NCBI GenBank assembly: GCA_017936585.1
Contig: JAGBFI010000016.1
Span: 31,577 to 95,576, forward strand
Length of the DNA stretch: 64,000 nt
From: Clostridia bacterium
GTDB taxonomy: Bacteria; Bacillota; Clostridia; Christensenellales; UBA1242
Direction of reading: 5' to 3'
The position numbers and the translations under genes are program-made. This document shows positions 41,105 to 64,000 of the stretch, piece after piece (position 1 is the first letter of the stretch; every line of letters begins with the position of its first letter). Under the pieces are notes generated by a model. The model was given only the letters and a program-made list of their open reading frames with translations. It made no database searches and had not been told where the DNA came from.

Positions 41105-41216
41105 CTAAAAATTAGCAAAAATTATGCTAAAAATTGAAAAAACGAAAAAAAAAAGAAAAAGTCATGTTTAAAACTGCGATTTTCTGGAAAATATCATGTC
41201 GTGGAGGTAGATAAAA

Positions 41217-42993: not shown

Positions 42994-43062
42994 ATGAAAA
43001 AATTTGCGCTTGGCATTTTAAGTGTTTTTATAATCCTTGGAGGAGTACTTTTGTCGGCTTGT
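42994..43062 (+). other. type II (lipoprotein) signal peptide of the giant protein
   Basis: Basic n-region MKK, hydrophobic core, lipobox L-S-A-C with Cys codon TGT at 43060-43062. Confidence 0.75.
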
Positions 43063-52000: not shown

Positions 52001-55000
52001 TCTCTGGTGATCATGATGCAAGCAAGACGATTGGCTCAAACAGTGTAGCAGTTGCAGGAATGAGAGCTCTTGCTCAAGAAAACAAATCTCTTGATGCACA
52101 AGCGGAAACCCTTTCATATGCGGGCGCAGTTGCCGTATATGTGGACATTTATGACAATGTCAACAACGAAAAAGTGAAATATTCATCTTTGAAAGCCAGT
52201 GACTATGACATCGTCACAGTTCACGTGACAGACTCAGTCAACATCTACGGCGAGGTTGCTGGAGGATTGTTTGGATACGTTGGCGATTCGACATATGTCT
52301 ATGACGCAACGCTTGAGCTCGATTCAAATGATGATTTGGAAAACCCTTCTTACATCATTTCAAAAAATCTCTATGCGGGTGGTTTGATTGGTGAAAACTA
52401 TGGCGGATTGTTCGCTGTTTATGCAAGCCATGAAAAAACTCTTCAAGACGAAATTGAAGAAAGCGAAAATGACTATTACACAGGCGAAAATGTGGATGCA
52501 GAAAGAGGACAAATGTCAATCTTCTCATACACAGAAAAAGACGCGCACGTCAAAAAGAGATATGATGACCCACTCTATATCGGCGGTCTTGTTGGATATA
52601 TGGGCGGCGGATACATCAATGTGGGATACAACAAACTCAACGTGATTTCACGCTCTTCAGCAACAAAAGCGGTGGGTGGCTTGATTGGTGTTGTTGCAAA
52701 CAACGAAACAACCTTCGAACTTTTGTCTCTCACAAACGCTCCACGTGTGAACATCTATTTGAAAGATGTTTATGCTTCTGGCGATTTGTATGCTGACGGA
52801 ACAAACACAACAAGTGCGGGAATTGTTGGTGCAATTTGCAACGACCCTGCAATTGGAATGAAAAACGTGCTTGCAATGAATTATTATTCATACAATGGGA
52901 CGACTCTTCTTGGCGATACTGCCGCAACAGTAAATGCACAAGGAGTTGTTGCCAGCGACAAGCATTTTATGCTTATCGGAAAAGCATACAATGCAAATGT
53001 GGATGCAATTTCTGAGCAGGCAAACTTGAATTCAAACATCTATGTCATCACAAGTGCAGACTCATACACAAATGTCAGAACTGGAGAACCTAAAGTTGCA
53101 ACAGGTTCTGCAACGGTGGGCGGTTATAGTTCAATTTCAATTGGGGCAGGCTCTTCATCTGCGGTTTCTGTCAGCCTTTCTCAATTTGGATTTAAACTCA
53201 ATGACAGAGCAATTGCAATGAGTTCAGACATCATCTTAAACAGCGAACATATCGGTGACAGCTGGATGGAAGAAATGCCAACCGCATATGTGCGTTTCTC
53301 ACAATATTTCCTCGAAAACGGATGGCAAGAAGAATATTGGGTTCACACTCAAGACGAACTCTTCCCTCACATAGAACTTTTGACAAAATCAAACATTGTT
53401 TATTGGGATGTTTTCAACACAAGAGAGGTTCTTACAAAGATGGCATCTGATGACGCTTTGACGGTTATTGTCAGAGGAAAAGTCAGCCAAACAGAAAACG
53501 ATCACGACTATGCAGATATCGACCTTCGTGCCTCTGCTTCAGATGTTGATGGACTTTTGAACTTTGAAACCTTGACAAACTTCAATGGAACTCTCACTTC
53601 TTATTATCAATACATGAACGAAGACGGAAATGTGTTTGTGACCAACGCGGCAGAAGGCAATGTTGGTGGAGAGGCGGGAGATCGTCCTGGAATTATTCTT
53701 GACAAGCCAATGTTTGAGAACATAAGTGGAAATAAAAACACAATCGAAGGGCTGAACATCTATTTCGTCCCAGGTAAGAATGCTGATGGGGCTGAGCTTA
53801 ACGACATCAACTATTCTTTTGTTGAAAATGAAACAAACAAGGCAATCTTCAATGATATTAATCTTATTTATAACAACAATGTTGCGTTGACAACCAATGT
53901 TGTTGAAAGTGCAGACAAGATTGTTGCAAACGCAGGGTTGGTTGCTCCAAAAGCAGATTCAACAACTTTCATCAACATCAATGTGACAATGAGGAATGAA
54001 AGTTCAATCACTTTCAACACTGAGGCGCTTCCAGCACAAACTGAGGGCACTGCACCAAAGTCAACAGAGGTTTATCTTGGAATTATGGCTGGCTATATTG
54101 CCCAAAGCGCTGACTTCAATGCAATCAGTGTTGAAGGAATCAATTTTGACAATGGGGTTGAGGCAAGCGTTGACTCAATTCAAATCAATGTGACAGGAAA
54201 CAACTCAAGTTATGACTCCTTGTATTTCGGACTTTACGCAGGAAGAATTTACAAGACAGTTGGTGGAACCTCAAAGATTTCTGTTGGACTTTCAAGTCTC
54301 AACAGCGTGAACATTAATTTGCAGAATATGGCGAAAGAGAACAACTATGTTGGCGGGTTTGTTGGTGACTTGCAAGGCGTTGAACAAGCAACCTTGCAAT
54401 CATCTGTGGTTAAACCTGGCAGCACGGGTGTTTCAATCATCCTGGAGAATGCCACGGTTGACTCTTTCTATGGTGGGCTTGCATTTGGCCGTGTTGACAA
54501 TTCCACAATAACAATCTCTGCTGGTGACGGCAAGGGTGAACTTCTTGGAGGAATTTATCAAAAGGGTGCTGTTTATATTGGCAGAACAAACATTGGAGCG
54601 ATTGCAGGATGGACAAATTCTTCAATCACTGTTCAAGGTTTGGCAGCGACTTTCAATGTTGGTAGACTTATAAGACTTGGCGAAAACAAATGGATTTTTA
54701 AAGATTATTTGACCAAATCAAATCCAGAAAATGATGAAGAAACAATTTTTGACTTGAATAAATATGATTATTCTCTCAGCGCTTTCACCACAGGCGGAGA
54801 TGTCAACGACAGCATTGGTGGATATTTTGGATATGTTGACAGCGGAAGTTTGTTGAAAATCACTGGTGCAGTTCAAGTTGATGGTGTGATTGATGTCGCA
54901 ACTGTTTATGATGAAAATGATGAAACAGAAACGATTTCAGTTGGTGGACTTATCGGGAAAATCACAGGCGCGGTTGAAACAAACATGAGTCTGTCAAACA

Positions 55001-58000
55001 ATTTGGACATTTCAGTTCAGGAAGATTTTGATTCGACTAAAAATTCAGTTTATTCAGCAACAGCTTATGTTGGAGGTGTGATTGGTTGGGTGCAAAGTGT
55101 GACATCTGATGAAAGTGAGACGCCAAGTTATCCATCGAATTACTTTGTGAAAATCAACCAAAACTCTTCAAATTATGTCAGATACAACGGAACAGTTCTG
55201 TCCGCAGTGAATGACCTTGTTTTTGGTGGAACAATTGGAATGGTTTCAAGAGGAAATTTCTTCAATGCAAACTATCCTGTTGCAATCTCAAATGCTGTTT
55301 ATGGCGGGGCTGTGAAGGCTTATGGAGACAAACTTGCTGGTGGCAAGTTGACTGTCGGAGGTGTTGTTGGAGAATATGGAGAAAAGGTAAATCCTTCAAA
55401 TTTGCCATGTTATTACACTATCACAAAGTCATATTCATATGGAGATGTGTTTGTTAACTATCGTGAAGTGAATGCACAAAAACAGTATGTGAATGACAGA
55501 TTAAGTACATATAACTTCGGAGGAATCGTTGGTTCTGCATCACGTATTGCAATCTCAGACTGCTCTTCAATTATGACGTCATTCAACAACAAAGTTCCTT
55601 ATGGAACAAACCTTTCATCAACAACAATTGGTGGATATTCAGTTGGAGCAATTGCAGGAGAAAGCAGCGGAGCGGCAATCTATTCAAACAACAAATATTC
55701 TTCTGGAGTTTCTCTTGCATATCAATTGCAGGACGGAAACCAGGATGTCCTTTATGGTGACTCTGAAGGAGCATATGTCGGATACACAAATCAAGTTGCA
55801 AAGGGAACTGAGGGCGAAACTCTCACTCTTCCAACAACAACAGAAAACATCTTGGATTTGTTTGCAGATTTCTTAACTTCGGAATCTGGGGAAGGACACA
55901 AACTGAATCCATATATGTGGGATGAAACTGATGAAGTAATCACATCAGCTTCAAACAAGACATTGGTTGGATCAAAAACACTTTCTTCTTCTCATAACAT
56001 CTCATGGGTGGCTCTTGCAAAAGATCTTGCTGGTGACAACAAGAGAATTTCCCCTGTGACTGACAATTTGACAAATGTTGCTTTTGTCGGCAACGGACAT
56101 ATCATTGAAATTGAAGACGAAAGACAGGTTGGAAAACTAGATGAAAACTCAACACTTTCAGATGCAAAAGATTTGGGTGCATTTGTCAATTCAATGGGTG
56201 TTAAATATAATTTAGATTTGAATGATTTATCATCAAACAGACCAAATTTCAATTTAGTTTCAGGCATGATTTTGGATTTGAATGTCAACGAAGTTGAAAT
56301 CAATGGTGGAGCATATTCTTATGGCGGTGTTGCAGGACGCAGCTATGGAAACTCATTCGTTTATGGTGTTGGAGTTCAAGGCACACTGTCTGTTGGTGGA
56401 AAAGATGACCAGCTTCTTTTGGCAGGCATCATCGGCTCAATGGATGAAGGGTTCATAAATGAGTGCTATGTTGACGCGCACATCTCATATCGTGCCGCAG
56501 AAGGGGGCTATGTTTCTGGAATTGCAAATGTTGCTGACTTTAACACAACTATAAAAGCAACATATTCTTCAGGCTTGATTGAAGCATACACAAATGTTCC
56601 AATCTATACTTTTGCATTCTCTTCTGAAAACACTAGCAACGCAACTCAGAATGCACTGATTGATTGCTATTCAATCACTCAAACAAAGAGAACAAATGTG
56701 TTCAGTGATGCTTCAACGGTTAACGAGGGTGTTTATTTCATCAATTTGGACACAAGCAATAAGTTTGACACATCAAGGTTTAAAACTTATGGCGAAGTCG
56801 TGCATGGTTGCTATGATGTGAGTGAAGCGTTGGCTGCGGACAGTATGGCGTTGGCTTACTATCAAGATGATTTGAGTGAAAGAAAATTGACGATAGATTA
56901 TGCTGATGAAGGAGAGAAAACATACTCTTCTTGGTACTTCTCTCCTTATGTTAACTATGGATATGCGGCACATGGATTTGGCTATCTGAAAAATGTAACA
57001 ACCTACACAAGAGCGGTTGTTGAGGCAGAAACGGCGACAGAAGAGGGCGCTGAGGTTGGTGCGACAGAGACAGATATCCCTGTTTATGATGCGGATGAAT
57101 ATGAATACACAGCAGTTTCCTATTCTGATATTTTGGCAAACGGCGCAAGCGACACCTTTGGAAATGTTGCAAAAGATGAAAGCAAATGGTGGTATTTGGG
57201 TGTTCCAAATGCAGGCAAGTTTGGACAGATGATCAGCACAATTGAGACGGGAAGCGAAAACTATGACAAAAACTATAGATTTGTTTTGCGTTATGGGTTT
57301 GATATGTCAAACTTTGCAGCTCTGCTTGGTAAGGATGTTGGAAAAGAGACCATGAGTCTTGTGATTGACGGAAATGGAAACACACTTAACTTTGAAAACA
57401 ACGGAGGCCTTTCAACAGCTCTGTTCAAAACGATGAACGGAAGTGTTGACAACCTGCGTCTTGTTGGAATCAAATCGTCTGCAAAAGGAACTCTTGCGGA
57501 AATTGTGAATGGAAGCATCACAAACATCACGGTTGTGGGCGAACTTACTCCTTCCGCGGGTCCTGCCGGTGGTGTTGTTGGAGAACTGAACGGAAGCGCA
57601 ACCAATGTTGAAGCTGTGGTGAACATTGACGGAAGTACTTCAATTATGGGCGGTGTTGTAGGAAAGATGACAAGTGGAATAATTTCCTACTCTTCAAACA
57701 GCGGAAGAATCGTGAACACATCAACTACAGGCTCTGGATTTAACATCGGACAAATTCAGTCAAATGGAGAATTCTTGGGTGCGGTTAATTCAACTGTGAC
57801 GGGTGGTGTTGTTGGCGTTGCGGATGGCGGCAAAGTTGAATTCTCATACAACGCGAACGCTGTTTTGGGCGGATACACAATAAGCACAGCTGGAAAGTAT
57901 GTTGTTGGTGGAGTTGTCGGCTATGCAAATGGGGTGACAATCAATCATGCATACAACACTGGTCTTGTTGGAGCTGGAAATTACACAAGCGAAGACACAA

Positions 58001-61000
58001 TTTCATATGCAGGTGGAATTGTTGGTTATGGTGCAAGCGGCAGCGTTTCAAACAGCATCAATGACGCACAGGTTGAGGCAATCAACAAATTTAACAAAAA
58101 TAAGTCAAAGCTTTCTTACTCATTGAAATCTGGTGCGGAGGAGACAACAGAATATAGTGCAAATCCAGCCCCTTTGAGTTACAGCGTGACAATGACATAC
58201 AATGACGGATTGGCAAGACACGTTTATGCTTATGGCGTGGGCTTCATGGCGAGCGGAAGCATTGAAAGCAGCAGCTCTTCAACTGACAATATCAAAAATG
58301 ATGGAAACATTGGTCAGGTGACAGACACACAAACTCTGACCTTTGATCGTGCGGCAATGCTTGATAATGGCGGGAATGAAAAATATCAAGCGATCTACAA
58401 TGCCGGAACAAAAGGAGATGACGGCTTTGGGAATGCAACATACACAAAAGAACTGTATATCAGTGGATATGACTCATACGGTGTGCCAGCCCGTGTCTAT
58501 ATGAATGACAACATGACAAGGATTTACAATGACGACACGTTGCTTGGCTATGCAAAAAAACATGTGGATTATGACTACGGGCACTGGTATGGAGCTTTGT
58601 TTGGTTGGGGCTATACTCGAGCTCAGAGAAGTTATGCTGTTGTTGCGGATTCTTCTGGGAAGACCTCCTCAAAACAGGATGCAACTTTGCAGAGTGACAA
58701 GACTCTTTTTGCTTCTGGCACTGCTGAATTTAATAGGACGTATTATCTCTCAGCTGAAACACAATATTATTCTTCAGTTGAATTCCAGGAATATGACACC
58801 AAACTTTCAAATGCAGGAGGGGTTGGTTGTGTTGCTGGAGTAACTTGTGGAACGTCTTATTCAAGAGTAAATTCAACAATTGAAAAACAAATTGAAAAAA
58901 TTGATGAAAAGAATGAAAATGGTGCAGGAATGCAAATTCTTTCAATCAATGGAGAGAATGTTGCTGTTGTCAAAAACAAACAAAATGTGCAAGCTGTTCT
59001 CGCTCCGGCATCATTGACATTTGGTCCTATTGAAATTGAAATTTTGGATGAAAAAACTGACTTTGAGTCCATCAAGGAAAGTGATTTGGCAATCAGTGTT
59101 ATCAAGAACGTTGGTGGGGTTGAGAGCGATGTTGGATATCAATTCTATGACCTCATCCAGTTTGCAAAGAATGCAGAGGAGAGAACAATCACTGTTGAGG
59201 GAACAATCTTTTTCACCAGCAGTGTTGAAGGAGATATCTCTGTTAAAACTGCAATTGACTATAGTTCTGTTATTGGATCTTTTGAACTTAGAAAGAACAA
59301 TCTGTATATAGATGAAAGCGGAAAAACAATAATTGATCTTGGGGAAACTGTCGTGTTTGAAGAAAATGTGACATCTTACAGTTACTCAATCAATGATACA
59401 GAATATATTTTCGACCGTGATGAAGAAAACAATATGCTTATTTACAATGGAAGAGAAAATTTAATAGAGTTGTACAGCGGAAATGCTACATTGATTATTT
59501 CAAGGACAAAACAAGTTGCTCGCAAAACAACAATTGAAGCAAAATTCACAACGACTTCAGAAACTCAGGAAGAGGCAATTGGTGCGGCAGAATATACGAC
59601 AGAAACTCTCACTCTTATCGGATATACCACAGGCACTTTGGGAAATCTCTCATTTGAAGATGTCACAGCAGCAATCGTTGACTCAGATTCTGGGGAAGAA
59701 CAAACAATTGTGACAGGAAAGAAAATTGCTCTTGAAAACATTTTGAGTAAATTTGGAAACACTTCAAAACTTGCATTTGGTGACAATTCAAACTATATGG
59801 TTTCTTACAACAATGGAAGATGGAGTGTTGTGGACGACAGCCTTGACGATGGAGTTTTGGTTTCAATTGAACAAGGATATTTGGTTTTTTCATCTTCAAC
59901 AACTGATGGAACAACAGAAACAAAAACTGATGTTGTGATTGACGAAACGTTCTTGGCAAATATGGCATACTGGCAGGTTTATTACGCAAAAACTGGAACA
60001 ATTGCAAGTGAAACAGGATATTCTTATATATCCAGAAATTATGCAGGTGAAATGTTTAATCTGACTTTTGCGCCTGCGGACAACGGAGATTTCAAAATCA
60101 ACACATATTCTCAGAAAGTTGAATATAGCGGATCGAATTTTGAAGCATCAACTGGAACAAATGTTGAAACTGTCACAACAAACTTTTGTGGAATTGATTT
60201 TGTTTCAAAGAAGGTTCCAATCACATACAGCAAGCTTCTTTCAGCTCAAGCAATATTGAGAAAAGCGAATGTGGGATATGAATTGAGCGTGACGGATTCA
60301 CAGGGAAAGCTTAAATTTGTAAAACAAGGATATGTAGGAGATTCCGTAAGCACATCAGTAGATTTGCCAAGCACAGCGTCTTCAGGAGATGTTGTTAGGT
60401 TTACAACATTTAAGCAAAAAATTTATGAAGGCACTGAGGAACTTACAAACTATATTTATGCGACAGGAGAGTCAAACAGCATTTCGTTCAGAAGTTATTC
60501 TGAGTCCGGTGATGAAGAAGAAAATGAATCAGAAACAATATCGTATTCAGTGACGAAAACAAAGTATCCGGAAACTGTTACAGATGGAGAATCATCAATT
60601 ACATCAGATAATTGTCCTTATTGCGGGGGAACTTGCAATTCGATTTCAACGAGAAAGGACTATATGAAAGATAATTGGGTTAGAGATGATGTGATGTATA
60701 ATTATGTATACACTATTTATGATTGTGGGGTTATTGAGGTTGAATATACCGACATATCAAATTCGGAAACTACAGGTAAAAAGTTTGTGTATAAAACGAT
60801 CAATGGAAATGTGACGATGGATGAATATACTATGGTTCAAAGTGCAGAAAAGTCTTATGTTACAGATGCAAGTGGAAATCGTATTGATACGAACGGAGAT
60901 GGAGAAATCAACGAAGATGATATGCAATACTCATACTCATGGAAGCAAGAATCTGGAGTTGAATTGAATTTTGATTACATGCAGAAATATGGTGACATTA

Positions 61001-62742
61001 CTATTGACTTTATCGTCACGGGCTTCGATGCAAACAATGTTTATGTTGCAAGAAATTCTGTTAAAAATGAAGACGGAGAATTTGTTGGTTTAAATGTGTA
61101 TGTCAAGGTTGACGATCTTGTTCAACAAACAGACACGAAAATCGTGAATACATATTCAGGACATGATGAGTCATGGAAATTTGAAATGCCTGATGGATTT
61201 GTTTCTGGCAGTTTGAAAGTTAAAGAAGGAAATGGAAGTTGGTTCGATTGTGAGGATGAACAAGAATTTGTTGGTGACGAAGAGTTAAAGGAATATTCTT
61301 ACAAATATTCTGGAGAAAAATCAAACTCTCAAGGGAATCTTGCTATCACTGGCGGTGAGGAAGGTTCAGCAACAAAATATATGCTTCTTGCAGCAGATTT
61401 CTCGCTGGGCAAGAAGAATTACGGTGAGAACAATGTAAGCATTTTCGGCGACAACTATGTTTTGAGATTTAGCTCAAGCATAACATCAAGTTCTTCTGCA
61501 AGTTTGTTTAAGGCGAACAGTGGGAATATCGTTGATTTGAATGTTGTCGGACAAAGTTTCTATCAATCAGGCGAAAGAGCACAGGCGTTGTTCCTTGAAT
61601 CATCGGAAGGTGATGTGAAAAATGCTAGAGTGTTTGGAAATATCAGAAATGTCAGTGCAAGCTATGGTTCAACCATTCATGCCGCAATCACAACGGCAAC
61701 AGGCTCGATTAGCATGGAAAGCTCCGTTGCCATGAATGTTCTTGATGCAGGAACAAACAGCAATGTCAGTGCAACATTGTCAAATGGCGGGGCTTCGGGA
61801 ATTTCAAGCAAGGATGTGCTTATTGCGGGTGATGCGGTGAAAGGAAGCAACGGTTCAAACAGTGGAGCAGCCGGTGCAAACGGCCAAGCTGGATCATCTG
61901 GTGGCGTTGGTGGAACAAACAATGTTTCATCAAGCGGAGATGTGGTTTCCAAAAATGGCCAAGCCGGTGTTGGTGGTTATGGCGGCAACGGAGTAAACGG
62001 CAACTTCAATGGAAACGAAGCTCTTGGTGGAGGTGGCGGCGGACAAGCCGGCACAAATGGTGGTGACCGCACTGCGAATGATGAAGGAAATTCAAATAGA
62101 GACTACGTAACTGTTCAATATGGTGGAAACGGTGGCGTAGGAGGACTTGGTAGGATTGTCGGAGAAATCTATTATCTTTCTGCTGGAGGTGGTTCATCTG
62201 GAAGTGTTGCGGAACAAGGGCAGAAGGGCGACAAGGGAATTTCAAAAGAACCTTACAGCTCTGGATTAGGTTCCAGCGACCAAAATGGAATCGTTTTCAT
62301 GGAAGCTATATCAACAGTGCTTGATACACCTCAACACTACTACAAAGAACATGGCTATACTTGGATGCATATTGGCGACACTGGATTTGCGGAAAATGAC
62401 CAATCTTGGAGAGATGGATGGGCAAATAGAGCTAAAGAGGTTGCAAAAACAGGTGCAACTGGAGCTCGGGGTGCTAGTGCAGCATTAGCTAATTCAGGTG
62501 GTCAAGTGGTGAATACACAAGTCTATTTTGGAATTTGGATTTACTACAAATATCATTTGCAAAGCTGGGGACTTTCAGGAGAGAGTGCTTGGTGGACAAT
62601 CCAAAATAACTACAACGTGGCGTGGTCGTCGGGAGAGATTGTCAACTCGGGCGGTTCTTATGGAAGCGCTTGCTCCGCAGTGAGTGGAGAAGGTGAAAAT
62701 GTTGTTCTGACTTGCAACCAAATTTGGGGGAATATGGCTTAA
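42994..62742 (+). CDS. giant surface lipoprotein (6,582 aa) with Ig-like regions and multiple GLUG-type beta-helix modules
   Basis: Uninterrupted frame. ATG 42994 follows AGGAGGA. MKKFALGILSVFIILGGVLLSAC with lipobox LSAC. More than 35 copies by eye of [AV]GG[LFIV][VI]GxNxGxIxN[SC][YF]-type turns. No LPXTG and no C-terminal TM. Confidence 0.9.
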   Translation: MKKFALGILSVFIILGGVLLSACDKRVSLSVPVDEVVIFTNDESEENPKEKEIGLTLENSSAGVNVEILNGEDCIRVSSAKRRGGNNYYFTIYGDRAGTAEVKVSAVEDSSQVHTINVVVNTILEGIETSKNDTVNNRSKLFIVKGGEIDLKAEEYFDFKPETANIVDVNWTFEDGTTEIYQDDVLVAEIVDAKLKVYNNDNNTLSYVSLKATSTRNEKVSSVVRLEVLESATINRMAIQDIAGEIVLYQNNSPAVTDVVEFNLKRNDASRAVASGEIVVNTKYDVQLSPIIFKKDGKKLVELAENEWSEYFDFNINRKTTDEVNGQVRYNFSLDAYDRDSILSFGSFMLYLNVGYRNYAYDITTKAVNVQINSTYAVEQIDLYDSQGEMINNSEVNVYSSYSKVSDATGSWRGYEVDSLLKPEEVALDNNLFRISIDVNQNDVLRRYINALSPEDKENPIAAIASFKKKNGNEITFSASAGSATYVSEEIASGEEIYVLASGKIENILENVRVDFIPSSDVTKATKVSFNFIKITEDATLGVFNEDGTAVTKRFISSNNVSTRKISYRVRINGLTSLSGLELVNDNSLFKFSEMTLIPATDPETDFVTVDFDVTLEGANFEATTKFWFEHITGKTSEMFELEAFRPLESVSILNADAQSANVYISHTGVQSYVEKNGTISENANLQNETLSKLMVEAGSIISLNTTYQSLSDAGISYAYLSYETMVEQLVDLQLDDLIDQFIDAGLTDEEATAKAMEIIEQQAKDLFNEKSASVGGTIYKNGLEFVAKKMFDSFGMIDNVYISQINDTRLQVTDNEFKGYVLVRFNGFDADYNSITVVRIFALESFYAVNSLTPNVKEDLLYTTETLSANDVAMASVDVTISLRADDKVPTYSALEYFNFTSAKDNWTTDTANNLLLKKNRFYTVSSIQPYLNGKYLTFTITANSTNSQTSFHDILTITYTDDYGFERKTEVSLEIRNVERVESVKWINRTLNDEIYLNLTSRNTADKNFTISTSVMPASANDLELAHVFAASGNAGNLAINPSLNGQTFNLSIDPELSDGGVGFLYLLPQDMVKIVNGRRQILLYHYETDENGNIMTDEDGYLKETAVYISESEINKNYDAIINGGVVGEGNDAKEVSNFFINNDGEKIYNKNIILKIKVILADGSGEDTAIRVYNEKELKDIDRGNFYYQIMNDITLTSWEAFDSYNGTIFGTSNTTTLTFENGSQNFVKVLNGTIKNLIFAGETTSTATDYAGFIANTNKGRLENISTDIYYDGQFYKSSTLNSNASCVGGLVGKNNGVIDSSFSFGLTINSSATTAGGLVGENNGTISNSGVEFYSFRETQTTQRPNSITVGGNGVVGGLVGLASEGSKIERSYVYAYPLTENGIVVDNLVYNGNMALFVGIGNGATSVSESFAFAGDLTTTVLSFSENVRFSNSYYIYRGFSGKSMKFLTTNSTLNSITLTTDGATISGRWDDAVGLLDKSIWQTEEIDTQINFGFMYLKNIAQSVAVDLDEVQIQNNTSPLQSLQVDTESGILFVYAPQAIISNPAELSELESYNTISLAKLFGLTEKQARSLLVSSENTNVALSTTSLRMLSTTTSEFTITVHSKMDLTNSKPLKFIVLNSLPEMTTKIDGEELLDGQIVMLQKSKELDISYTLKNVIYLNGQDYLIDRDEYDIAFTLNGLETTEDDYLSAVKSNNALQLTGKNSHEKANPSFISSWLAVDSLERRYAAAVANQRKREFEVAVYNGATDLRVANAKNLEFKPSEYASFDVIMATDNAEDNLVLTLKMGELQWTSREDVNSAVFEINSSLKIDASWSYVEEVNARRYTVVVKVDNSCKHLVSSDVNFEILVNALSQIDNTNYVKAVGMTLKTQNVDKVMINAYSIDSRRIVSSVLYLATANKIISTLMPASDAILAVSVRPEFALMTHFTVTYSVVSEGKIGIINLTKLSNDSRYGFYVDSRNTTYLTNGIRVDLTDTDRASRGDYYFRMYASSAFGDDSSVLLTVTYYNGDEVLKIATKEMQVDYMKNATVLVEGAERYLLAKGESATVTISVGADQRLANLYLEGNGTNISLSSWLEKLEGNTRTYTATLVAHVDATVLDKDGNHKSTGVFYVCANVERVLNGEQEIKTSRAVVGLMDFTLNEGEISLAASDGTTTYNGKEYDVLYTYIGASTTLSFNYPIMPEDYNYDVNDANEVEEMKRILQERQKFLLKNTYANEDVQYYINYEYDRTTATYKELTLKEQLYFASNEDDATAIYSSNSGLRDNDLFTIDEENVGNVAGVENATELVIRGTTTGRQLMKLETIVMYEGQVLRRIPYYFVIVVDTWTDEETPTCINTAEEFIEYATESEKPDDYILMNDIVLEDYEPLSTELISSLDGNGYTIHLNSFKEQTGSSVNYALFSEVAEGTTLKNVRVNIYGGGQITVNVAQGATSRVYAAGFAIINNGIIYNCEVVSYFSDHQKTAISGATGLVVKYVDGLNTDPIQISGAREIESVVAGFVYENNASITNSRVGGESFRYIKDIAGQDYIATQKLGTFTLEGQGEVAGFVATNAGYISASFADNMQINNMMNSNISATAGFALYNTQNIQNSYIEGVGIIEDENNNKIVEHDLTNITSIGVVAGFVYDNSGLVKNSYANIAIENTKTKPAYASGFVYTNQTAGEITLCYTACAISKSDVNQLPFSGVSSSTTSLNYGKITLSYFYNSTKIDDTSESSLTSGATPVTEILSDPENALYGFSFASSDDAYDGIWTKTDNGITLVSANKIAFSNRYSVYDEKTQMTSIFYNKSIRDAETLISENLSYGSENNPIIIRNAYDFAVATGAATSKEISAYKEYYTSKEVFGNYRVVNDLAFDDENVDQNATSEGKAKLTTTEKTFSGILDGNGFTISAINLGSSKDVENFGLFAKLNGAVVMNLNLIVDSVHNSQATIVGTLAGTAIDSRIIAISLAPISTQGKGESTLIEGFNIVGGVVGMLFGESKIHDIEVKNIEIFSGDHDASKTIGSNSVAVAGMRALAQENKSLDAQAETLSYAGAVAVYVDIYDNVNNEKVKYSSLKASDYDIVTVHVTDSVNIYGEVAGGLFGYVGDSTYVYDATLELDSNDDLENPSYIISKNLYAGGLIGENYGGLFAVYASHEKTLQDEIEESENDYYTGENVDAERGQMSIFSYTEKDAHVKKRYDDPLYIGGLVGYMGGGYINVGYNKLNVISRSSATKAVGGLIGVVANNETTFELLSLTNAPRVNIYLKDVYASGDLYADGTNTTSAGIVGAICNDPAIGMKNVLAMNYYSYNGTTLLGDTAATVNAQGVVASDKHFMLIGKAYNANVDAISEQANLNSNIYVITSADSYTNVRTGEPKVATGSATVGGYSSISIGAGSSSAVSVSLSQFGFKLNDRAIAMSSDIILNSEHIGDSWMEEMPTAYVRFSQYFLENGWQEEYWVHTQDELFPHIELLTKSNIVYWDVFNTREVLTKMASDDALTVIVRGKVSQTENDHDYADIDLRASASDVDGLLNFETLTNFNGTLTSYYQYMNEDGNVFVTNAAEGNVGGEAGDRPGIILDKPMFENISGNKNTIEGLNIYFVPGKNADGAELNDINYSFVENETNKAIFNDINLIYNNNVALTTNVVESADKIVANAGLVAPKADSTTFININVTMRNESSITFNTEALPAQTEGTAPKSTEVYLGIMAGYIAQSADFNAISVEGINFDNGVEASVDSIQINVTGNNSSYDSLYFGLYAGRIYKTVGGTSKISVGLSSLNSVNINLQNMAKENNYVGGFVGDLQGVEQATLQSSVVKPGSTGVSIILENATVDSFYGGLAFGRVDNSTITISAGDGKGELLGGIYQKGAVYIGRTNIGAIAGWTNSSITVQGLAATFNVGRLIRLGENKWIFKDYLTKSNPENDEETIFDLNKYDYSLSAFTTGGDVNDSIGGYFGYVDSGSLLKITGAVQVDGVIDVATVYDENDETETISVGGLIGKITGAVETNMSLSNNLDISVQEDFDSTKNSVYSATAYVGGVIGWVQSVTSDESETPSYPSNYFVKINQNSSNYVRYNGTVLSAVNDLVFGGTIGMVSRGNFFNANYPVAISNAVYGGAVKAYGDKLAGGKLTVGGVVGEYGEKVNPSNLPCYYTITKSYSYGDVFVNYREVNAQKQYVNDRLSTYNFGGIVGSASRIAISDCSSIMTSFNNKVPYGTNLSSTTIGGYSVGAIAGESSGAAIYSNNKYSSGVSLAYQLQDGNQDVLYGDSEGAYVGYTNQVAKGTEGETLTLPTTTENILDLFADFLTSESGEGHKLNPYMWDETDEVITSASNKTLVGSKTLSSSHNISWVALAKDLAGDNKRISPVTDNLTNVAFVGNGHIIEIEDERQVGKLDENSTLSDAKDLGAFVNSMGVKYNLDLNDLSSNRPNFNLVSGMILDLNVNEVEINGGAYSYGGVAGRSYGNSFVYGVGVQGTLSVGGKDDQLLLAGIIGSMDEGFINECYVDAHISYRAAEGGYVSGIANVADFNTTIKATYSSGLIEAYTNVPIYTFAFSSENTSNATQNALIDCYSITQTKRTNVFSDASTVNEGVYFINLDTSNKFDTSRFKTYGEVVHGCYDVSEALAADSMALAYYQDDLSERKLTIDYADEGEKTYSSWYFSPYVNYGYAAHGFGYLKNVTTYTRAVVEAETATEEGAEVGATETDIPVYDADEYEYTAVSYSDILANGASDTFGNVAKDESKWWYLGVPNAGKFGQMISTIETGSENYDKNYRFVLRYGFDMSNFAALLGKDVGKETMSLVIDGNGNTLNFENNGGLSTALFKTMNGSVDNLRLVGIKSSAKGTLAEIVNGSITNITVVGELTPSAGPAGGVVGELNGSATNVEAVVNIDGSTSIMGGVVGKMTSGIISYSSNSGRIVNTSTTGSGFNIGQIQSNGEFLGAVNSTVTGGVVGVADGGKVEFSYNANAVLGGYTISTAGKYVVGGVVGYANGVTINHAYNTGLVGAGNYTSEDTISYAGGIVGYGASGSVSNSINDAQVEAINKFNKNKSKLSYSLKSGAEETTEYSANPAPLSYSVTMTYNDGLARHVYAYGVGFMASGSIESSSSSTDNIKNDGNIGQVTDTQTLTFDRAAMLDNGGNEKYQAIYNAGTKGDDGFGNATYTKELYISGYDSYGVPARVYMNDNMTRIYNDDTLLGYAKKHVDYDYGHWYGALFGWGYTRAQRSYAVVADSSGKTSSKQDATLQSDKTLFASGTAEFNRTYYLSAETQYYSSVEFQEYDTKLSNAGGVGCVAGVTCGTSYSRVNSTIEKQIEKIDEKNENGAGMQILSINGENVAVVKNKQNVQAVLAPASLTFGPIEIEILDEKTDFESIKESDLAISVIKNVGGVESDVGYQFYDLIQFAKNAEERTITVEGTIFFTSSVEGDISVKTAIDYSSVIGSFELRKNNLYIDESGKTIIDLGETVVFEENVTSYSYSINDTEYIFDRDEENNMLIYNGRENLIELYSGNATLIISRTKQVARKTTIEAKFTTTSETQEEAIGAAEYTTETLTLIGYTTGTLGNLSFEDVTAAIVDSDSGEEQTIVTGKKIALENILSKFGNTSKLAFGDNSNYMVSYNNGRWSVVDDSLDDGVLVSIEQGYLVFSSSTTDGTTETKTDVVIDETFLANMAYWQVYYAKTGTIASETGYSYISRNYAGEMFNLTFAPADNGDFKINTYSQKVEYSGSNFEASTGTNVETVTTNFCGIDFVSKKVPITYSKLLSAQAILRKANVGYELSVTDSQGKLKFVKQGYVGDSVSTSVDLPSTASSGDVVRFTTFKQKIYEGTEELTNYIYATGESNSISFRSYSESGDEEENESETISYSVTKTKYPETVTDGESSITSDNCPYCGGTCNSISTRKDYMKDNWVRDDVMYNYVYTIYDCGVIEVEYTDISNSETTGKKFVYKTINGNVTMDEYTMVQSAEKSYVTDASGNRIDTNGDGEINEDDMQYSYSWKQESGVELNFDYMQKYGDITIDFIVTGFDANNVYVARNSVKNEDGEFVGLNVYVKVDDLVQQTDTKIVNTYSGHDESWKFEMPDGFVSGSLKVKEGNGSWFDCEDEQEFVGDEELKEYSYKYSGEKSNSQGNLAITGGEEGSATKYMLLAADFSLGKKNYGENNVSIFGDNYVLRFSSSITSSSSASLFKANSGNIVDLNVVGQSFYQSGERAQALFLESSEGDVKNARVFGNIRNVSASYGSTIHAAITTATGSISMESSVAMNVLDAGTNSNVSATLSNGGASGISSKDVLIAGDAVKGSNGSNSGAAGANGQAGSSGGVGGTNNVSSSGDVVSKNGQAGVGGYGGNGVNGNFNGNEALGGGGGGQAGTNGGDRTANDEGNSNRDYVTVQYGGNGGVGGLGRIVGEIYYLSAGGGSSGSVAEQGQKGDKGISKEPYSSGLGSSDQNGIVFMEAISTVLDTPQHYYKEHGYTWMHIGDTGFAENDQSWRDGWANRAKEVAKTGATGARGASAALANSGGQVVNTQVYFGIWIYYKYHLQSWGLSGESAWWTIQNNYNVAWSSGEIVNSGGSYGSACSAVSGEGENVVLTCNQIWGNMA
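43090..43365 (+). other. first Ig-like (Big_2-like) domain of the giant protein
   Basis: ...VNVEILNGEDCIRVSS...YFTIYGDRAGTAEVKVSAVEDSSQVHTINVVVN resembles the Big_2 ending (kaGtatItat..dg.k.a...vtV). Boundaries are approximate. Confidence 0.45.
46513..47520 (+). other. GLUG/beta-helix module 1
   Basis: Lead-in IRVYNEKELKDID..YYQIMNDITL...FDSYNGTIFG. Turns VGGLVGKNNGVIDSSFSF, AGGLVGENNGTISNSGVE, VGGLVGLASEGSKIERSYVY. Cap DKSIWQTEEID..FGFMYLKNI. Confidence 0.7.
50017..51330 (+). other. GLUG/beta-helix module 2
   Basis: Lead-in PTCINTAEEFIEYA...DYILMNDIVL...LDGNGYTIHLNSF. Turns AAGFAIINNGIIYNCEVV, VAGFVYENNASITNSRVG, VAGFVATNAGYISASFAD, VAGFVYDNSGLVKNSYAN. Cap DGIWTKTDNGITL. Confidence 0.7.
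51445..53385 (+). other. GLUG/beta-helix module 3
   Basis: Lead-in NPIIIRNAYDF...YRVVNDLAF...FSGILDGNGFTISAINL. Turns VGGVVGMLFGESKIHDIEV, AGGLIGENYGGLFAVYAS, IGGLVGYMGGGYINVGYN, VGGLIGVVANN. Cap EEYWVHTQDELFPHIELL. Confidence 0.7.
53400..55940 (+). other. GLUG/beta-helix module 4 (longest, most degenerate)
   Basis: Turns YVGGFVGDLQGVEQATLQS, IGGYFGYVDSGSLLKITG, VGGLIGKITGAVETNMS, VGGVVGEYG, FGGIVGSASRIAISDCSS, VGAIAGESSGAAIYSNN. Cap NPYMWDETDEV. Confidence 0.55.
55990..57000 (+). other. GLUG/beta-helix module 5
   Basis: Lead-in ...NVAFVGNGHIIEIED. Turns YGGVAGRSYGNSFVYGVG, LAGIIGSMDEGFINECYV, VSGIANVADFNTTIKATYS. Cap SSWYFSPYVNYGYAAHGFGYLKNV. Confidence 0.55.
57268..58320 (+). other. GLUG/beta-helix module 6
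   Basis: Lead-in YRFVLRYGFDMSNF...LVIDGNGNTLNFEN. Turns AGGVVGELNGSATNVEAV, MGGVVGKMTSGIISYSSN, TGGVVGVADGGKVEFSYN, VGGVVGYANGVTINHAYN, AGGIVGYGASGSVSNSIN. Confidence 0.7.
61381..61827 (+). other. short beta-helix-like module 7
   Basis: YMLLAADFSLGKKNYGENNVSIFGDNYVLRFSS...FKANSGNIVDLNVVG...GDVKNARVFGNIRNVS has the same lead-in logic but few turns. Confidence 0.4.
61828..62240 (+). repeat. Gly/Asn/Ser-rich low-complexity segment of the giant protein
   Basis: GDAVKGSNGSNSGAAGANGQAGSSGGVGGTNN...GVGGYGGNGVNGNFNGNEALGGGGGGQAGTNGGD...QYGGNGGVGGLG...SAGGGSSGS...GQKGDKG. Confidence 0.85.
62241..62739 (+). other. Trp/Tyr-rich C-terminal domain of the giant protein (unknown fold)
   Basis: About 165 aa with 9 Trp in the last ~125 residues (TWMHIGD..SWRDGWANR..FGIWIYYKYHLQSWG..SAWWTIQNNYNVAWSSG..CNQIWGNMA*) and two Cys pairs. 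I recognise no motif. Confidence 0.6.
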
Positions 62743-62825
62743 GAATGACAAGAAATAGAGGAAAATTTGAATTTTGTGTGAAAAGGATCTCGCTCTGAGC
62801 ACAGCACAAAATCACAAACGAAAGG

Positions 62826-63599
62826 ATGAAAGAAATGGAAAAGAAAACAGAGGCGCAGGGGAAGAAAAAGTGTATTCATGAGGGGCATCGCGCGAGGTTG
62901 TCGGCTCTTGCAAAAAACGCTGGGCTGGACAGCATGAGCGAAGTTCAAGTGATGGAATTTTTCTTGACATACATTTTTCCAAGAGGGGATGTCAATCCCC
63001 TTGCTCACCGTCTGTTGGATGAGTACGAAACTTTCACAAATGTCATTGACGCCGAGGCCGAAGACTTGATGAGAATTCATGGAATCAACGAGCGTTCGGC
63101 GCGAATGATAAACATGTTTGGCGAACTGTTCTATTACTATGCAACCGCAAGAATGGGGAAAAAGTTTATTGTCAGAACAATGGCTGACCTCATTGATGTT
63201 GCGGAGGATTATCTTCGATTTCGAACCACTGAGAATATGCTGATTATGGCGCTTAGCCCTGCAAACATTCTCACTCACAAACGCCGCATCGACATGAACA
63301 AAAATGATGAGGTTGGCGTTTCGTTTTTGGAATTTACAAACTTCATCGCAAACGCAAAGCCTGCAAGTATGGTGATTGCTCATTGTCACCCATATGGCAG
63401 TGCAAAGCCGTCTGAAAAAGATGTCGAATCTTACAAGAAAATTGGAGAGCTGTGCACCTCTTGTGGAGTGCGTCTGATTGATTCGATGATTGTGGGCGAG
63501 GATGGCGTTTACAGTCAGCTGGAGGAAAAGTTTTACAGAACCTACCGAAGCTTGGACGTGGTGAAGGAATCTTTCCAAAAGCTTATCAGCGGACAATAG
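62826..63599 (+). CDS. radC: RadC-like JAB/MPN domain protein
   Basis: 257 aa. N-terminal HEGHRARL...helix-hairpin-helix-like EDLMRIHGINERSARMI. C-terminal JAMM-like box IAHCHPYGSAKPSEKD (canonical HNHPSGxxxPSxxD). Confidence 0.8.
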   Translation: MKEMEKKTEAQGKKKCIHEGHRARLSALAKNAGLDSMSEVQVMEFFLTYIFPRGDVNPLAHRLLDEYETFTNVIDAEAEDLMRIHGINERSARMINMFGELFYYYATARMGKKFIVRTMADLIDVAEDYLRFRTTENMLIMALSPANILTHKRRIDMNKNDEVGVSFLEFTNFIANAKPASMVIAHCHPYGSAKPSEKDVESYKKIGELCTSCGVRLIDSMIVGEDGVYSQLEEKFYRTYRSLDVVKESFQKLISGQ

Positions 63600-63633
63600 A
63601 GACCCGCATGATATTGACATAAAAATGGAAAAA

Positions 63634-63657
63634 CTCAACAATTTGTTGAGTTTTTTT
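63634..63657 (+). terminator. rho-independent terminator after radC
   Basis: Stem CTCAACA / TGTTGAG with loop ATT, followed by T7. Confidence 0.85.
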
Positions 63658-63819
63658 ATGAATTGAGCTGATTGAAAAACTTCTTTATGAATGTTTTTCT
63701 TTCACATTTTTTTATCCGGAATTTAGCGGTGAAGAACTATTTTTGCATTTTTCTGCAAATTACGTGAATTTTATCGAAAAATATTTGCTAAAAAATGACA
63801 AAATATGTAAAATAAAAGT

Positions 63820-64000
63820 ATGAAGAAATTATTAAATTCATTTATTTTAATAATTTGTGGAATCTTCCTCACCTTAGGTTGTGGAATTTTATTATCGGCT
63901 TGTAACCCTGACAGTGGTCGGGGGGGGGTGCCCCTGACCAGCCTTCAGTAAGTCAGCCGGGGGATTTGGAAACGCCGGAGCAAGGAGATGACACTGAAAC
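63820..64000 (+). CDS. lipoprotein gene 5' end, frame broken at a G9 tract (OFF as sequenced; +1 G restores an ORF that runs off the window)
   Basis: ATG 63820 gives MKKLLNSFILIICGIFLTLGCGILLSACNPDSGRGG, then VPLTSLQ* (stop 63949-63951). With G10 the frame reads ...GRGGGAPDQPSVSQPGDLETPEQGDDTE... and stays open to nt 64000. Confidence 0.5.
63920..63928 (+). repeat. poly-G homopolymer (G9) inside the lipoprotein coding region
   Basis: Read directly as ggtc-ggggggggg-tgcccc. It is the only G or C run of this length I found in the window. Confidence 0.95.

What the first reader, a model, noticed from the sequence alone, without database searches (positions are those of the whole stretch)
63820..64000. 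G9 homopolymer breaks a second lipoprotein gene just after its signal peptide: candidate phase-variation switch
Seen: ATG 63820 opens MKKLLNSFILIICGIFLTLGCGILLSAC-NPDSGRGG. It contains two lipobox-like sites, the second being LLSAC as in the giant protein. A run of nine G (63920-63928) follows immediately. As sequenced the frame stops 7 codons later (TAA 63949-63951), giving a 43-aa product. G8 gives an even earlier TGA. G10 yields …GRGGGAPDQPSVSQPGDLETPEQGDDTE…, which stays open to the window edge and looks like a normal post-lipobox linker. A G9 run is very unexpected in this AT-rich sequence, and it is the only G or C run of this length I found. Known: homopolymer tracts at the 5' end of surface lipoprotein genes are classic slipped-strand ON/OFF switches (Mycoplasma, Campylobacter, Neisseria and others). 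Inference: a phase-variable surface lipoprotein captured in the OFF state next to the giant lipoprotein. The alternative is a homopolymer length error in the assembly.
Basis: partly seen in the sequence, partly recalled or inferred. Interest (0 to 1): 0.65.

Follow-up and report, generated by a model that had tools for sequence, protein, structure and literature searches.

The report
Poly-G on/off switch in lipoprotein family
A run of nine G's splits a surface-lipoprotein gene of an uncultured gut Clostridia bacterium just after its export signal, and sister genes in the same genome carry the same leader with ten G's and read through, so this is most likely a slippage-driven on/off switch of a known kind, caught "off".

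Summary
ATG 63820 opens a lipoprotein signal peptide. G9 lies at 63920-63928 and the frame stops at TAA 63949-63951 (43 aa). The +1 frame is open to the window edge. G9 is the only G or C run of 6 or more in 64 kb, where about 5 are expected.

The downstream frame continues at least 1.75 kb past the window, in NCBI's own annotation of this gene (P0126, 596 aa, partial) and in two other assemblies. It encodes a Listeria-Bacteroides-repeat (InlB B-repeat) surface protein.

Two paralogs in the same MAG (P0121, P0122) begin with the same 58 aa as the G10 reading (…GRGGGAPDQ…). They then diverge to 14-29% identity and converge again near the C-terminus. A fourth, P0123, is annotated from the post-tract TTG like the window copy, so it is probably off too.

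G9 is identical in the window and in assemblies from three samples, so an assembly error is unlikely. One sample carries an extra 19-bp frameshifting deletion, so this copy may be decaying.

Best reading (about 0.65): a species-specific family of variable lipoproteins, each with a poly-G slipped-strand switch. It is a new member of a known kind; the closest architecture is the Bifidobacterium pilin G-tract. Read-level tract heterogeneity was not testable.

The parts
63629..63655 (.). Perfect 13-bp hairpin with T/A runs on both sides. It is the terminator of the upstream RadC-like gene (62835-63599) and separates it from the lipoprotein gene.
   Evidence: I6: 13 nt arms, 100% complementary, 1 nt between the arms; sequence.
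63785..63813 (+). Promoter-like site TTGCTA-17-TAAAAT. The -10 hexamer ends 6 nt before the ATG and no Shine-Dalgarno sequence lies between them, so the mRNA may be leaderless (inference).
   Evidence: 9 of 12 matches; sequence. This is a consensus match only.
63772..63995 (+). Approximate extent of the 5' cassette shared with paralogs in the same genome: promoter-like site, signal peptide, G tract and start of the acidic linker.
   Evidence: The 3' limit comes from 58 aa identical to P0121 and P0122, with divergence at residue 59. The 5' limit is inferred: two Logan contigs from different runs both end at window-equivalent 63801. I attribute that common end to a repeat boundary in the assembly graph, assuming k=31 from my own knowledge.
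63820..63903 (+). Lipoprotein signal peptide MKKLLNSFILIICGIFLTLGCGILLSA|C. The preferred lipobox is LSAC with Cys28 at 63901-63903. A second candidate is Cys21 at 63880-63882.
   Evidence: PS51257 core matches at Cys21 and Cys28; K/R within the first 7 residues.
63920..63928 (+). G9 homopolymer, the proposed slipped-strand switch. G9 is OFF. G10 or G7 is ON.
   Evidence: Identical G9 in L003, L004 and L005. ON paralogs read GRGGGAPDQ, which equals C-G10-T with the same codons.
63820..63951 (+). OFF-state ORF of 43 aa, ending at TAA 63949-63951. After lipoprotein processing it would leave at most a 16-residue lipopeptide, CNPDSGRGGVPLTSLQ.
   Evidence: The processing step is inference.
63912..64000 (+). 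Start of the body reading frame (the +1 frame relative to the ATG). It opens after TGA 63909-63911 and continues at least 1753 nt beyond the window. It encodes an acidic linker, a variable domain and a Listeria-Bacteroides repeat region.
63966..63968 (+). TTG used as the start codon by the NCBI and ENA annotators (product METPEQGDD...). It is probably not a real start: the product would lack a signal peptide, and the only purine-rich stretch upstream (GGGGGA) ends 1 nt before the TTG.
   Evidence: sequence.

Best explanation
The gene starting at 63820 belongs to a species-specific family of variable surface lipoproteins (Listeria-Bacteroides / InlB B-repeat proteins). The organism is an uncultured Clostridia bacterium; I believe the samples are ruminant gut metagenomes, but I did not verify that.

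Each family member is headed by the same cassette of roughly 200 bp: core promoter, lipoprotein signal peptide, a poly-G tract eight codons after the lipidated cysteine, and the start of an acidic linker. Slipped-strand mispairing during replication changes the tract length by one base. G10 (or G7 or G13) joins the signal peptide to the body, so a lipid-anchored surface protein of more than 645 aa is made (ON). G9 terminates after 43 codons (OFF).

The window copy is in the OFF state. At least two paralogs in the same genome are ON. The cell's surface repertoire would then be set by which family members are in frame.

Shown:
- the tract, the frame logic and the long intact body ORF;
- ON paralogs with an identical leader;
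- reproducibility of G9 across samples.

Inferred:
- that switching is frequent and reversible;
- that the protein is lipidated and surface-exposed;
- that the promoter belongs to the shared cassette.
For: 1. Frame logic. G9 gives a stop at codon 44. G10 or G7 gives an ORF open for at least 616 codons in a composite of L005 and L003. With NCBI's P0126 the total is at least 645 codons.
2. The body is a real gene. It has Pfam Flg_new (32.5 bits against a cutoff of 27) and TIGR02543. It is 41% identical over 100% of its length to P0121.
3. P0121 (MBP3431659) and P0122 (MBP3431530) carry accession numbers in the same short range as this window's RadC (MBP3431505) and this gene (MBP3431506), which I take to mean the same MAG. 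Both begin with 58 residues identical to the G10 reading, including GRGGGAPDQ. Tract length is then the only difference within an otherwise identical leader.
4. P0123 (MBP3431292) is annotated from METPEQGDD, exactly as the known-OFF window copy P0126 is. This suggests a second OFF member.
5. G9 is identical in the window and in assemblies of three BioSamples.
6. G/C runs are otherwise absent from 64 kb, where about 5 runs of 6 or more are expected. They are also absent from 20-kb syntenic loci of two related species. The tract therefore looks retained against a genome-wide bias.
7. The family is a mosaic: 100% identity in the leader, 14-29% in the middle and about 70% near the C-terminus. This pattern is typical of variable surface-antigen families.
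8. The same split architecture (secretion signal ORF, G tract, body ORF) was shown experimentally to be a replication-slippage ON/OFF switch in Bifidobacterium breve pilin genes (PMC9187656).
Against: - No read-level data were available, so tract-length heterogeneity within a population was not seen.
- This particular copy is G9 in all four assemblies.
- In one sample (L003) it also carries a 19-bp frameshifting deletion, as expected for a copy no longer under selection.
- The three samples belong to one study and may not be independent populations.
- The G10 state of the paralogs is deduced from their protein sequences, because their DNA could not be retrieved.
- The cassette was found in no other organism, so conservation of the tract across species could not be tested.
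- The ATG has no Shine-Dalgarno sequence.
Confidence: 0.65

Rival explanations
1. Dead pseudogene. The window copy was inactivated once by a 1-bp deletion in a G10 run and is now decaying. The tract is a mutational hotspot, not a switch maintained by selection.
For: G9 is uniform in all four assemblies. One sample has an additional 19-bp frameshifting deletion bounded by a 4-bp TACA microhomology. The locus is a lineage-specific insertion absent from related species.
Against: Apart from L003, the body ORF has no stops over at least 596 codons. A G tract is retained in the same place in several paralogs of a genome that otherwise lacks G/C runs of 6 or more. The family shows mixed ON and OFF states. 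Mechanistically this rival differs from the OFF state only in reversion rate.
Confidence: 0.2
2. Homopolymer length error. The true tract is G10 and the gene is intact. G9 is an Illumina or assembler artefact.
For: G tracts are error-prone on Illumina platforms; the 'G's end' phenomenon is described in PMC9187656. The cassette is a repeat that breaks assemblies, as shown by contig ends at window-equivalent 63801 and 63974, so tract variants from paralogs could be mis-threaded.
Against: The same G9 appears in the NCBI MAG and in independent assemblies of three BioSamples. The same MAG assembly resolved G10 in two paralogs. The tract lies only about 65 nt from copy-specific sequence, so single reads can link the two.
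Confidence: 0.08
3. Recoding. The G9 allele is expressed without any DNA change, through transcriptional slippage or +1/-2 ribosomal frameshifting on the G run, giving a fixed low level of full-length protein.
For: A run of nine is about as long as the RNA-DNA hybrid, the length at which RNA polymerase slippage becomes possible. This rests on established knowledge for A/T runs and is my own recollection, not a test made here.
Against: I know of no precedent for efficient slippage on G runs in this group. No stimulatory structure or Rfam element was found. Paralogs encode the in-frame version directly in their DNA, which argues that the normal ON state is genomic.
Confidence: 0.05

Closest known systems
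Bifidobacterium breve sortase-dependent pilin genes bbr_0113 and bbr_1889 (intragenic G-tract replication-slippage switch; PMC9187656)
   Same: A Gram-positive gut commensal. The secretion signal and the protein body lie in two ORFs separated by a homopolymeric G tract of about 10-12. Tract length decides whether translation continues into the body. Database annotations split the gene in the same way.
   Different: Those are LPXTG pilins of Actinobacteria in a high-GC genome, with one or two loci per genome. Here the gene is a lipoprotein with Listeria-Bacteroides repeats in a 39% GC Clostridia genome, and the tract-bearing leader is shared by a multigene family. No sequence relationship between the two systems was tested.
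Mycoplasma variable lipoprotein families, for example M. hyorhinis Vlp and the M. fermentans P78 poly-A switch (from my own knowledge, not checked in papers here)
   Same: A multigene family of surface lipoproteins with a highly conserved 5' region (promoter plus prolipoprotein signal) and divergent external regions. Each gene is toggled independently by a homopolymer length change, which gives combinatorial surface phenotypes.
   Different: The Vlp tract is poly-A in the promoter spacer and acts on transcription. Here the tract is poly-G inside the coding region and acts on translation. The host here looks like an ordinary, probably walled, sporulation-lineage Clostridia: SpoIIID and M23 peptidase genes are in the window. 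There is no homology evidence.
Poly-G/C contingency genes of Campylobacter jejuni, Neisseria meningitidis, Haemophilus and Helicobacter
   Same: An intragenic G/C homopolymer of 8 or more near the 5' end of a surface-structure gene, with ON/OFF switching by a 1-nt slippage, in a genome where such tracts are otherwise rare.
   Different: Those are Gram-negative pathogens with dozens of unrelated tract-bearing genes. Here the tract is known only in one paralogous family, and only about 66 kb of the genome could be examined.
Streptococcus zooepidemicus SZO08560 (Listeria-Bacteroides repeat surface protein with a proposed invertible promoter; PMC2654543)
   Same: The same repeat family (PF09479) in a Firmicute surface protein that is proposed to be phase-variable.
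   Different: The mechanism there is recombinase-mediated promoter inversion, not homopolymer slippage. The anchor there is LPXTG, not a lipobox.

Membership tests
Simple-sequence-repeat (homopolymer) phase-variable / contingency gene | A G or C homopolymer of about 8 or more inside the coding region or promoter of the gene | tested here: met
   G9 at 63920-63928, codons 34-37 of the ORF.
Simple-sequence-repeat (homopolymer) phase-variable / contingency gene | A change of one repeat unit switches between a truncated and a full-length product | tested here: met
   G9 gives 43 aa and G8 gives 38 aa. G10 or G7 gives an ORF open for at least 616-645 codons with recognised domains.
Simple-sequence-repeat (homopolymer) phase-variable / contingency gene | Tract length differs between otherwise identical sequences (copies, strains or cells) | tested here: inconclusive
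   Between paralogs the answer is yes. P0121 and P0122 read GRGGGAPDQ (equivalent to G10), against G9 here, within a leader of 58 identical residues. This is deduced from protein only. For this copy the answer is no: G9 in all four assemblies from three samples.
Simple-sequence-repeat (homopolymer) phase-variable / contingency gene | High-frequency, reversible switching within a clonal population | not testable with these tools
   This needs raw reads or culture. Only consensus assemblies were reachable.
Bacterial lipoprotein (PROSITE PS51257 prolipoprotein signal) | N-terminal K/R, an uncharged hydrophobic stretch and a lipobox [LIVMFWSTAG]2-[LIVMFYSTAGCQ]-[AGS]-C, with the Cys at position 15-35 | tested here: met
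   A regular-expression implementation matches at Cys21 and Cys28, with K2 and K3 present. Actual lipidation is not testable.
Listeria-Bacteroides repeat / InlB B-repeat proteins (Pfam PF09479 Flg_new; NCBIfam TIGR02543) | At least one repeat scoring above the curated cutoff | tested here: met
   PF09479 scores 32.5 bits against 27. TIGR02543 scores 23.6 bits against 20.95 for P0126, and all three paralogs also pass.
Mycoplasma Vlp/Vsp-type variable lipoprotein families | Sequence homology to Vlp or Vsp proteins, or their tandem-repeat external regions | not tested
   Only the organisational resemblance was considered. No hit outside this MAG was found for the leader. I do not file this gene as a member of that family.

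The most novel reading that the evidence does not exclude
An uncultured gut Clostridia species carries a Mycoplasma-Vlp-like antigenic variation system. It would consist of at least four, and probably more, paralogous surface lipoprotein genes. Each would be headed by an identical promoter, signal-peptide and poly-G cassette and would end in shared C-terminal repeats. Expression would then be combinatorial (independent ON/OFF per gene). The variable middle domains could also be shuffled by recombination between the conserved flanks. Likely selective pressures are phage or host IgA. A separate human-gut contig (L009) has the same poly-G-in-signal-peptide arrangement on an unrelated Flg_new protein, which hints that this is a recurrent strategy for this adhesin class in gut microbes.
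Probability: 0.4. Interest if true: 0.65.

Novelty: new member of a known kind. Interest (0 to 1): 0.5.

Why it matters
Homopolymer contingency loci are textbook in a few pathogens and in mycoplasmas. They have rarely been documented in the uncultured Clostridia that dominate animal guts. My literature searches found Bifidobacterium and Gardnerella examples but nothing for this group or for this protein family by this mechanism.

If the switch is real, three things follow.

1. These organisms diversify their surface stochastically, which bears on phage and host-immunity interactions in the gut.
2. Annotation pipelines systematically mis-call such genes. Here both NCBI and ENA start the gene at an internal TTG and lose the signal peptide.
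3. The shared cassette explains why assemblies of this genome break at these genes.

The idea is directly testable with the existing public reads.

Tried and rejected
**Retrieving the source or the paralog DNA**
- Exact-product look-ups failed for RadC with two wrong starts and for the 43-aa ORF. The correct RadC start is 62835 (P0001).
- A search with the 60-aa G10 leader found nothing in the word-indexed protein search. Yet P0121 and P0122 do contain it, as later searches showed. That first negative result was therefore a sensitivity failure of the tool.
- Genome contigs gave nothing for the RadC protein or for a 43-nt leader DNA pattern.
- A tract-spanning DNA pattern gave nothing in metagenome contigs or viral contigs.
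- The family alignment searched against metagenome contigs returned 80 loci, all matched only through the generic Flg_new repeat. None contains the cassette.
- P0121, P0122 and P0123 are not in the gene-position index. The paralog DNA, its tract lengths and its upstream regions were therefore never seen directly.

**Comparisons and predictions that gave nothing useful**
- Synteny in related species: the giant gene followed by RadC is conserved, but the lipoprotein gene is absent. There was no cross-species test of tract conservation.
- Relationship to the giant lipoprotein: none, apart from a weak 62-residue match between the giant protein and P0122.
- AlphaFold of P0121 with a 4-sequence alignment gave a mean pLDDT of 30. 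I did not use it and ran no fold search.
- The PDB sequence search gave no hit. Rfam gave nothing at gathering score in 63500-64000.

**Ideas considered and dropped**
- An imperfect inverted repeat (63738-63760 and 63783-63805, 83% complementary) overlaps the -35 site. I considered it as a possible invertible promoter and rejected it: the arms are only 22 nt apart and the sequence is AT-rich.
- I tried to identify the study from a BioProject number I remembered, but the number pointed to a different (buffalo) study. The origin of the samples is therefore stated only as a recollection.

Full report

Yes.

- ATG 63820 opens MKKLLNSFILIICGIFLTLGCGILLSACNPDSGRGGVPLTSLQ and stops at TAA 63949-63951. 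This is the 43-aa ORF listed and translated.
- The G run is nine long (63920-63928).
- The frame reached by adding one G is open from 63912, after TGA 63909-63911, to the window end. It reads ...GGGAPDQPSVSQPGDLETPEQGDDTE.
- The frame reached by removing one G hits a TGA sooner.
- Cys21 and Cys28 both satisfy the PROSITE PS51257 lipobox core.
- The giant neighbour (real start MKKFALGILSVFIILGGVLLSAC, 6582 aa, 42994-62742) uses the same LLSAC box.

A count of all homopolymers shows that this is the only G or C run of 6 or more in the 64 kb. About six are expected from base composition, and 5.3 from a first-order Markov model. In that model a run of 9 or more occurs in 14 of 300 simulated windows. 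The length alone is therefore only mildly improbable. But the genome clearly avoids G/C runs, and the single exception lies eight codons after a lipobox cysteine.

**2. Where the window comes from, and what lies beyond its edge**

The M23-peptidase gene of the window is found on ENA contig ERZ28654337 scaffold_230 (118,758 bp). That contig is 99.985% identical to the window over 20.5 kb, and its end corresponds to window position 63974.

The RadC-like gene just upstream was retrieved once its correct start (62835) was used. It is P0001 = MBP3431505.1, 'MAG: Clostridia bacterium', locus tag J6K39_01445. It occurs on five contigs from several samples of one metagenome series.

- Three of these contigs (L003, L004, L005, from BioSamples SAMN15830107, SAMN15830132 and SAMN15830102) cover the tract. 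All three have G9 with identical flanks.
- L005 and L003 extend 1.8-2.0 kb past RadC.
- In a composite of the two, G10 or G7 gives an ORF that is still open after 616 codons. G8, G9 and G11 stop within 38-43 codons.
- NCBI's own annotation of this gene was recovered as P0126 = MBP3431506.1, the accession right after RadC. It is 596 aa, '3'-partial InlB B-repeat-containing protein', and starts METPEQGDD..., that is, at TTG 63966.

The frame therefore continues at least 1753 nt beyond the window.

The body carries a Listeria-Bacteroides repeat: PF09479 at 32.5 bits against a cutoff of 27, and TIGR02543. The TTG start chosen by the annotators would give a surface-type protein with no signal peptide, and the TTG has no usable ribosome-binding site. 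The natural reading is a single gene split by the tract.

**3. The decisive comparison: paralogs in the same genome**

A search with the reconstructed protein found three NCBI proteins. Their accession numbers (MBP3431659, MBP3431530, MBP3431292) lie in the same short range as the two window genes. I take this to mean the same MAG submission.

- P0121 and P0122 start with MKKLLNSFILIICGIFLTLGCGILLSACNPDSGRGGGAPDQPSVSQPGDLETPEQGDD. This is residue-for-residue the G10 reading of the window leader (tblastn).
- With the window's codons, GRGGGAPDQ corresponds to C-G10-T. G7 would give GRGGAPDQ.
- After residue 58 the proteins diverge. Mean pairwise identity is 14-29% through the middle. It rises to about 70% in a C-terminal block that includes the Listeria-Bacteroides repeat.
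- P0122 and P0126 even end on the same residues (...YYIRFNSAPTSSSYSGVDSAT). The contigs therefore break inside a shared 3' repeat.
- P0123 is annotated from METPEQGDD, the same form as the copy we know to be G9-OFF. It is probably a second OFF copy (inference by analogy).

An exhaustive HMMER search of 1.84 billion representative proteins with the first 91 residues of P0121 found only P0121, P0122 and P0125. P0125 is the ENA call of the window gene. As far as public data show, the leader is confined to this species.

**4. The cassette behaves as a genomic repeat**

Two Logan contigs from different runs (L006, L007) have different left ends, but both stop at window-equivalent 63801, 19 nt before the ATG. 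I assume these are k=31 de Bruijn-graph assemblies; that is my own knowledge, not a tool result. On that assumption a common stop is what a repeat starting near 63772 would produce.

A repeat starting there would include the only promoter-like site in the intergenic region, TTGCTA-17-TAAAAT at 63785-63813. If so, each paralog has its own promoter. This is inference, because paralog DNA could not be retrieved.

The -10 hexamer ends 6 nt before the ATG and there is no Shine-Dalgarno sequence. Other genes here have one: GGAGGA before the giant gene and GAAAGGA before RadC. The transcript may therefore be leaderless. I note this but did not test it.

**5. Mechanism**

The best-supported explanation is a slipped-strand (replication-slippage) ON/OFF switch.

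- In-frame tract lengths (G10, also G7 or G13) fuse the lipoprotein signal to a large variable surface protein.
- G9 ends translation after 43 codons. After processing this would leave at most a 16-residue lipopeptide (inference).
- The family shows both states in one genome consensus: two ON, one certainly OFF and one probably OFF.
- The tract is the only difference in an otherwise identical leader.
- The genome otherwise lacks G/C runs.

The same split architecture has been shown experimentally to work this way in Bifidobacterium breve pilin genes. There the Sec signal and the LPXTG body are two ORFs separated by a G tract, and population tract-length distributions shift in vivo (PMC9187656).

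What is not shown here is heterogeneity or reversibility in a population. Only consensus assemblies were reachable.

**6. Rivals**

(a) Decaying pseudogene. This copy is G9 in all four assemblies. In L003 it has an extra 19-bp deletion (TACAACAAATCGAAAGTTT, bounded by TACA microhomology) that shifts the frame again. The body is otherwise free of stops over about 600 codons, and the tract is retained across paralogs. I give this rival 0.2. It differs from the OFF state only in whether reversion still matters.

(b) Assembly or sequencing error. This is unlikely given the agreement of three samples and the G10 calls in paralogs of the same assembly. It is not excluded, because the cassette is a repeat and G tracts are error-prone. 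I give it 0.08.

(c) Transcriptional or translational recoding on G9. There is no supporting element, and the paralogs encode the in-frame form in their DNA. I give it 0.05.

**7. Context in related genomes**

In two related species (RadC 63-64% identical; GCA_947629145.1 and GCA_949841245.1) the pairing of the giant gene (6631 and 6674 aa) with RadC is conserved. Different small genes follow, there is no Flg_new lipoprotein, and there is no G/C run of 7 or more in 20 kb. The switch-bearing gene is therefore a lineage-specific addition, in line with the species-restricted leader.

**8. Comparison with known systems and novelty**

- In function it matches classic homopolymer contingency genes.
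- In architecture it matches the Bifidobacterium pilin G-tract genes.
- In family organisation (conserved promoter and signal cassette, variable body, independent switches) it resembles Mycoplasma Vlp-type lipoprotein families. That last comparison rests on my own knowledge, and no homology is implied.
- A Listeria-Bacteroides-repeat protein with a different proposed switch, an invertible promoter, is known in Streptococcus zooepidemicus (PMC2654543).
- Literature searches found no report of this mechanism for this protein family or for uncultured Clostridia.

I class it as a new member of a known kind. Interest is moderate (0.5). The finding is well supported by comparison and is testable with existing reads, but the mechanism would not surprise a specialist.

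**9. Dead ends**

These are listed under Tried and rejected. The most limiting were the inability to fetch paralog DNA and the lack of raw reads.

Noticed in passing
L009:4806-8259 (human gut metagenome contig OROK01003687): An unrelated contig was fetched only through the Flg_new repeat. It has a G12 run at 4826-4837, the only G/C run of 6 or more in its 9.6 kb. Reading from TTG 4806 (MKSKSLAGGG...), G12 stops after 30 codons. G11 or G14 gives a 1150-aa ORF with a Sec-type signal (AACLLLVLCLISSAAFLSPA) fused to a 1091-aa Listeria-Bacteroides-repeat protein with a C-terminal membrane anchor. This is the same kind of switch, in the OFF state, in another gut organism.
   Followed up: partly
L003:11896 region (window-equivalent about 64730); alignment A1 columns 1131-1149: The copy from sample SAMN15830107 lacks 19 bp (TACAACAAATCGAAAGTTT, flanked by TACA microhomology) that L005 and NCBI's P0126 have. 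This causes a second frameshift, so the gene is called as 270-aa and 309-aa pieces. It is either real decay of the OFF copy in that population or a local misassembly.
   Followed up: partly
window 63801 (right ends of L006 and L007) and 63974 (end of ENA scaffold_230): Independent assemblies stop at the edges of the leader cassette, and P0122 and P0126 end on identical C-terminal residues. The family's shared 5' and 3' blocks fragment short-read assemblies of this genome.
   Followed up: partly
window 42994-62742 (+): A giant 6582-aa lipoprotein with no Pfam hit on record. It is conserved in size (6631 and 6674 aa) and in its position upstream of RadC in two related species. It is unrelated to the poly-G family apart from one weak 62-residue match to P0122.
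   Followed up: partly
window 63785-63822: The -10-like TAAAAT ends 6 nt before ATG 63820 with no Shine-Dalgarno sequence, unlike neighbouring genes. The mRNA may be leaderless.
   Followed up: no
whole window: G/C homopolymers are strongly depleted. There are no runs of 6-8 where about 5 are expected. A/T runs of 8 are common and mostly look intergenic from their flanks. One A10 at 41145-41154 lies between the 153-aa gene and the M23 peptidase gene.
   Followed up: no
window 62739-63641 (-): A 300-aa TTG-initiated ORF runs antisense to the whole RadC gene. It is probably a chance shadow ORF and was not examined.
   Followed up: no
window 63738-63805: An imperfect inverted repeat (23-nt arms, 83% complementary, 22 nt apart) overlaps the -35-like hexamer of the lipoprotein promoter. 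It could be an operator or AT-rich chance. It is too compact for an invertible element.
   Followed up: no
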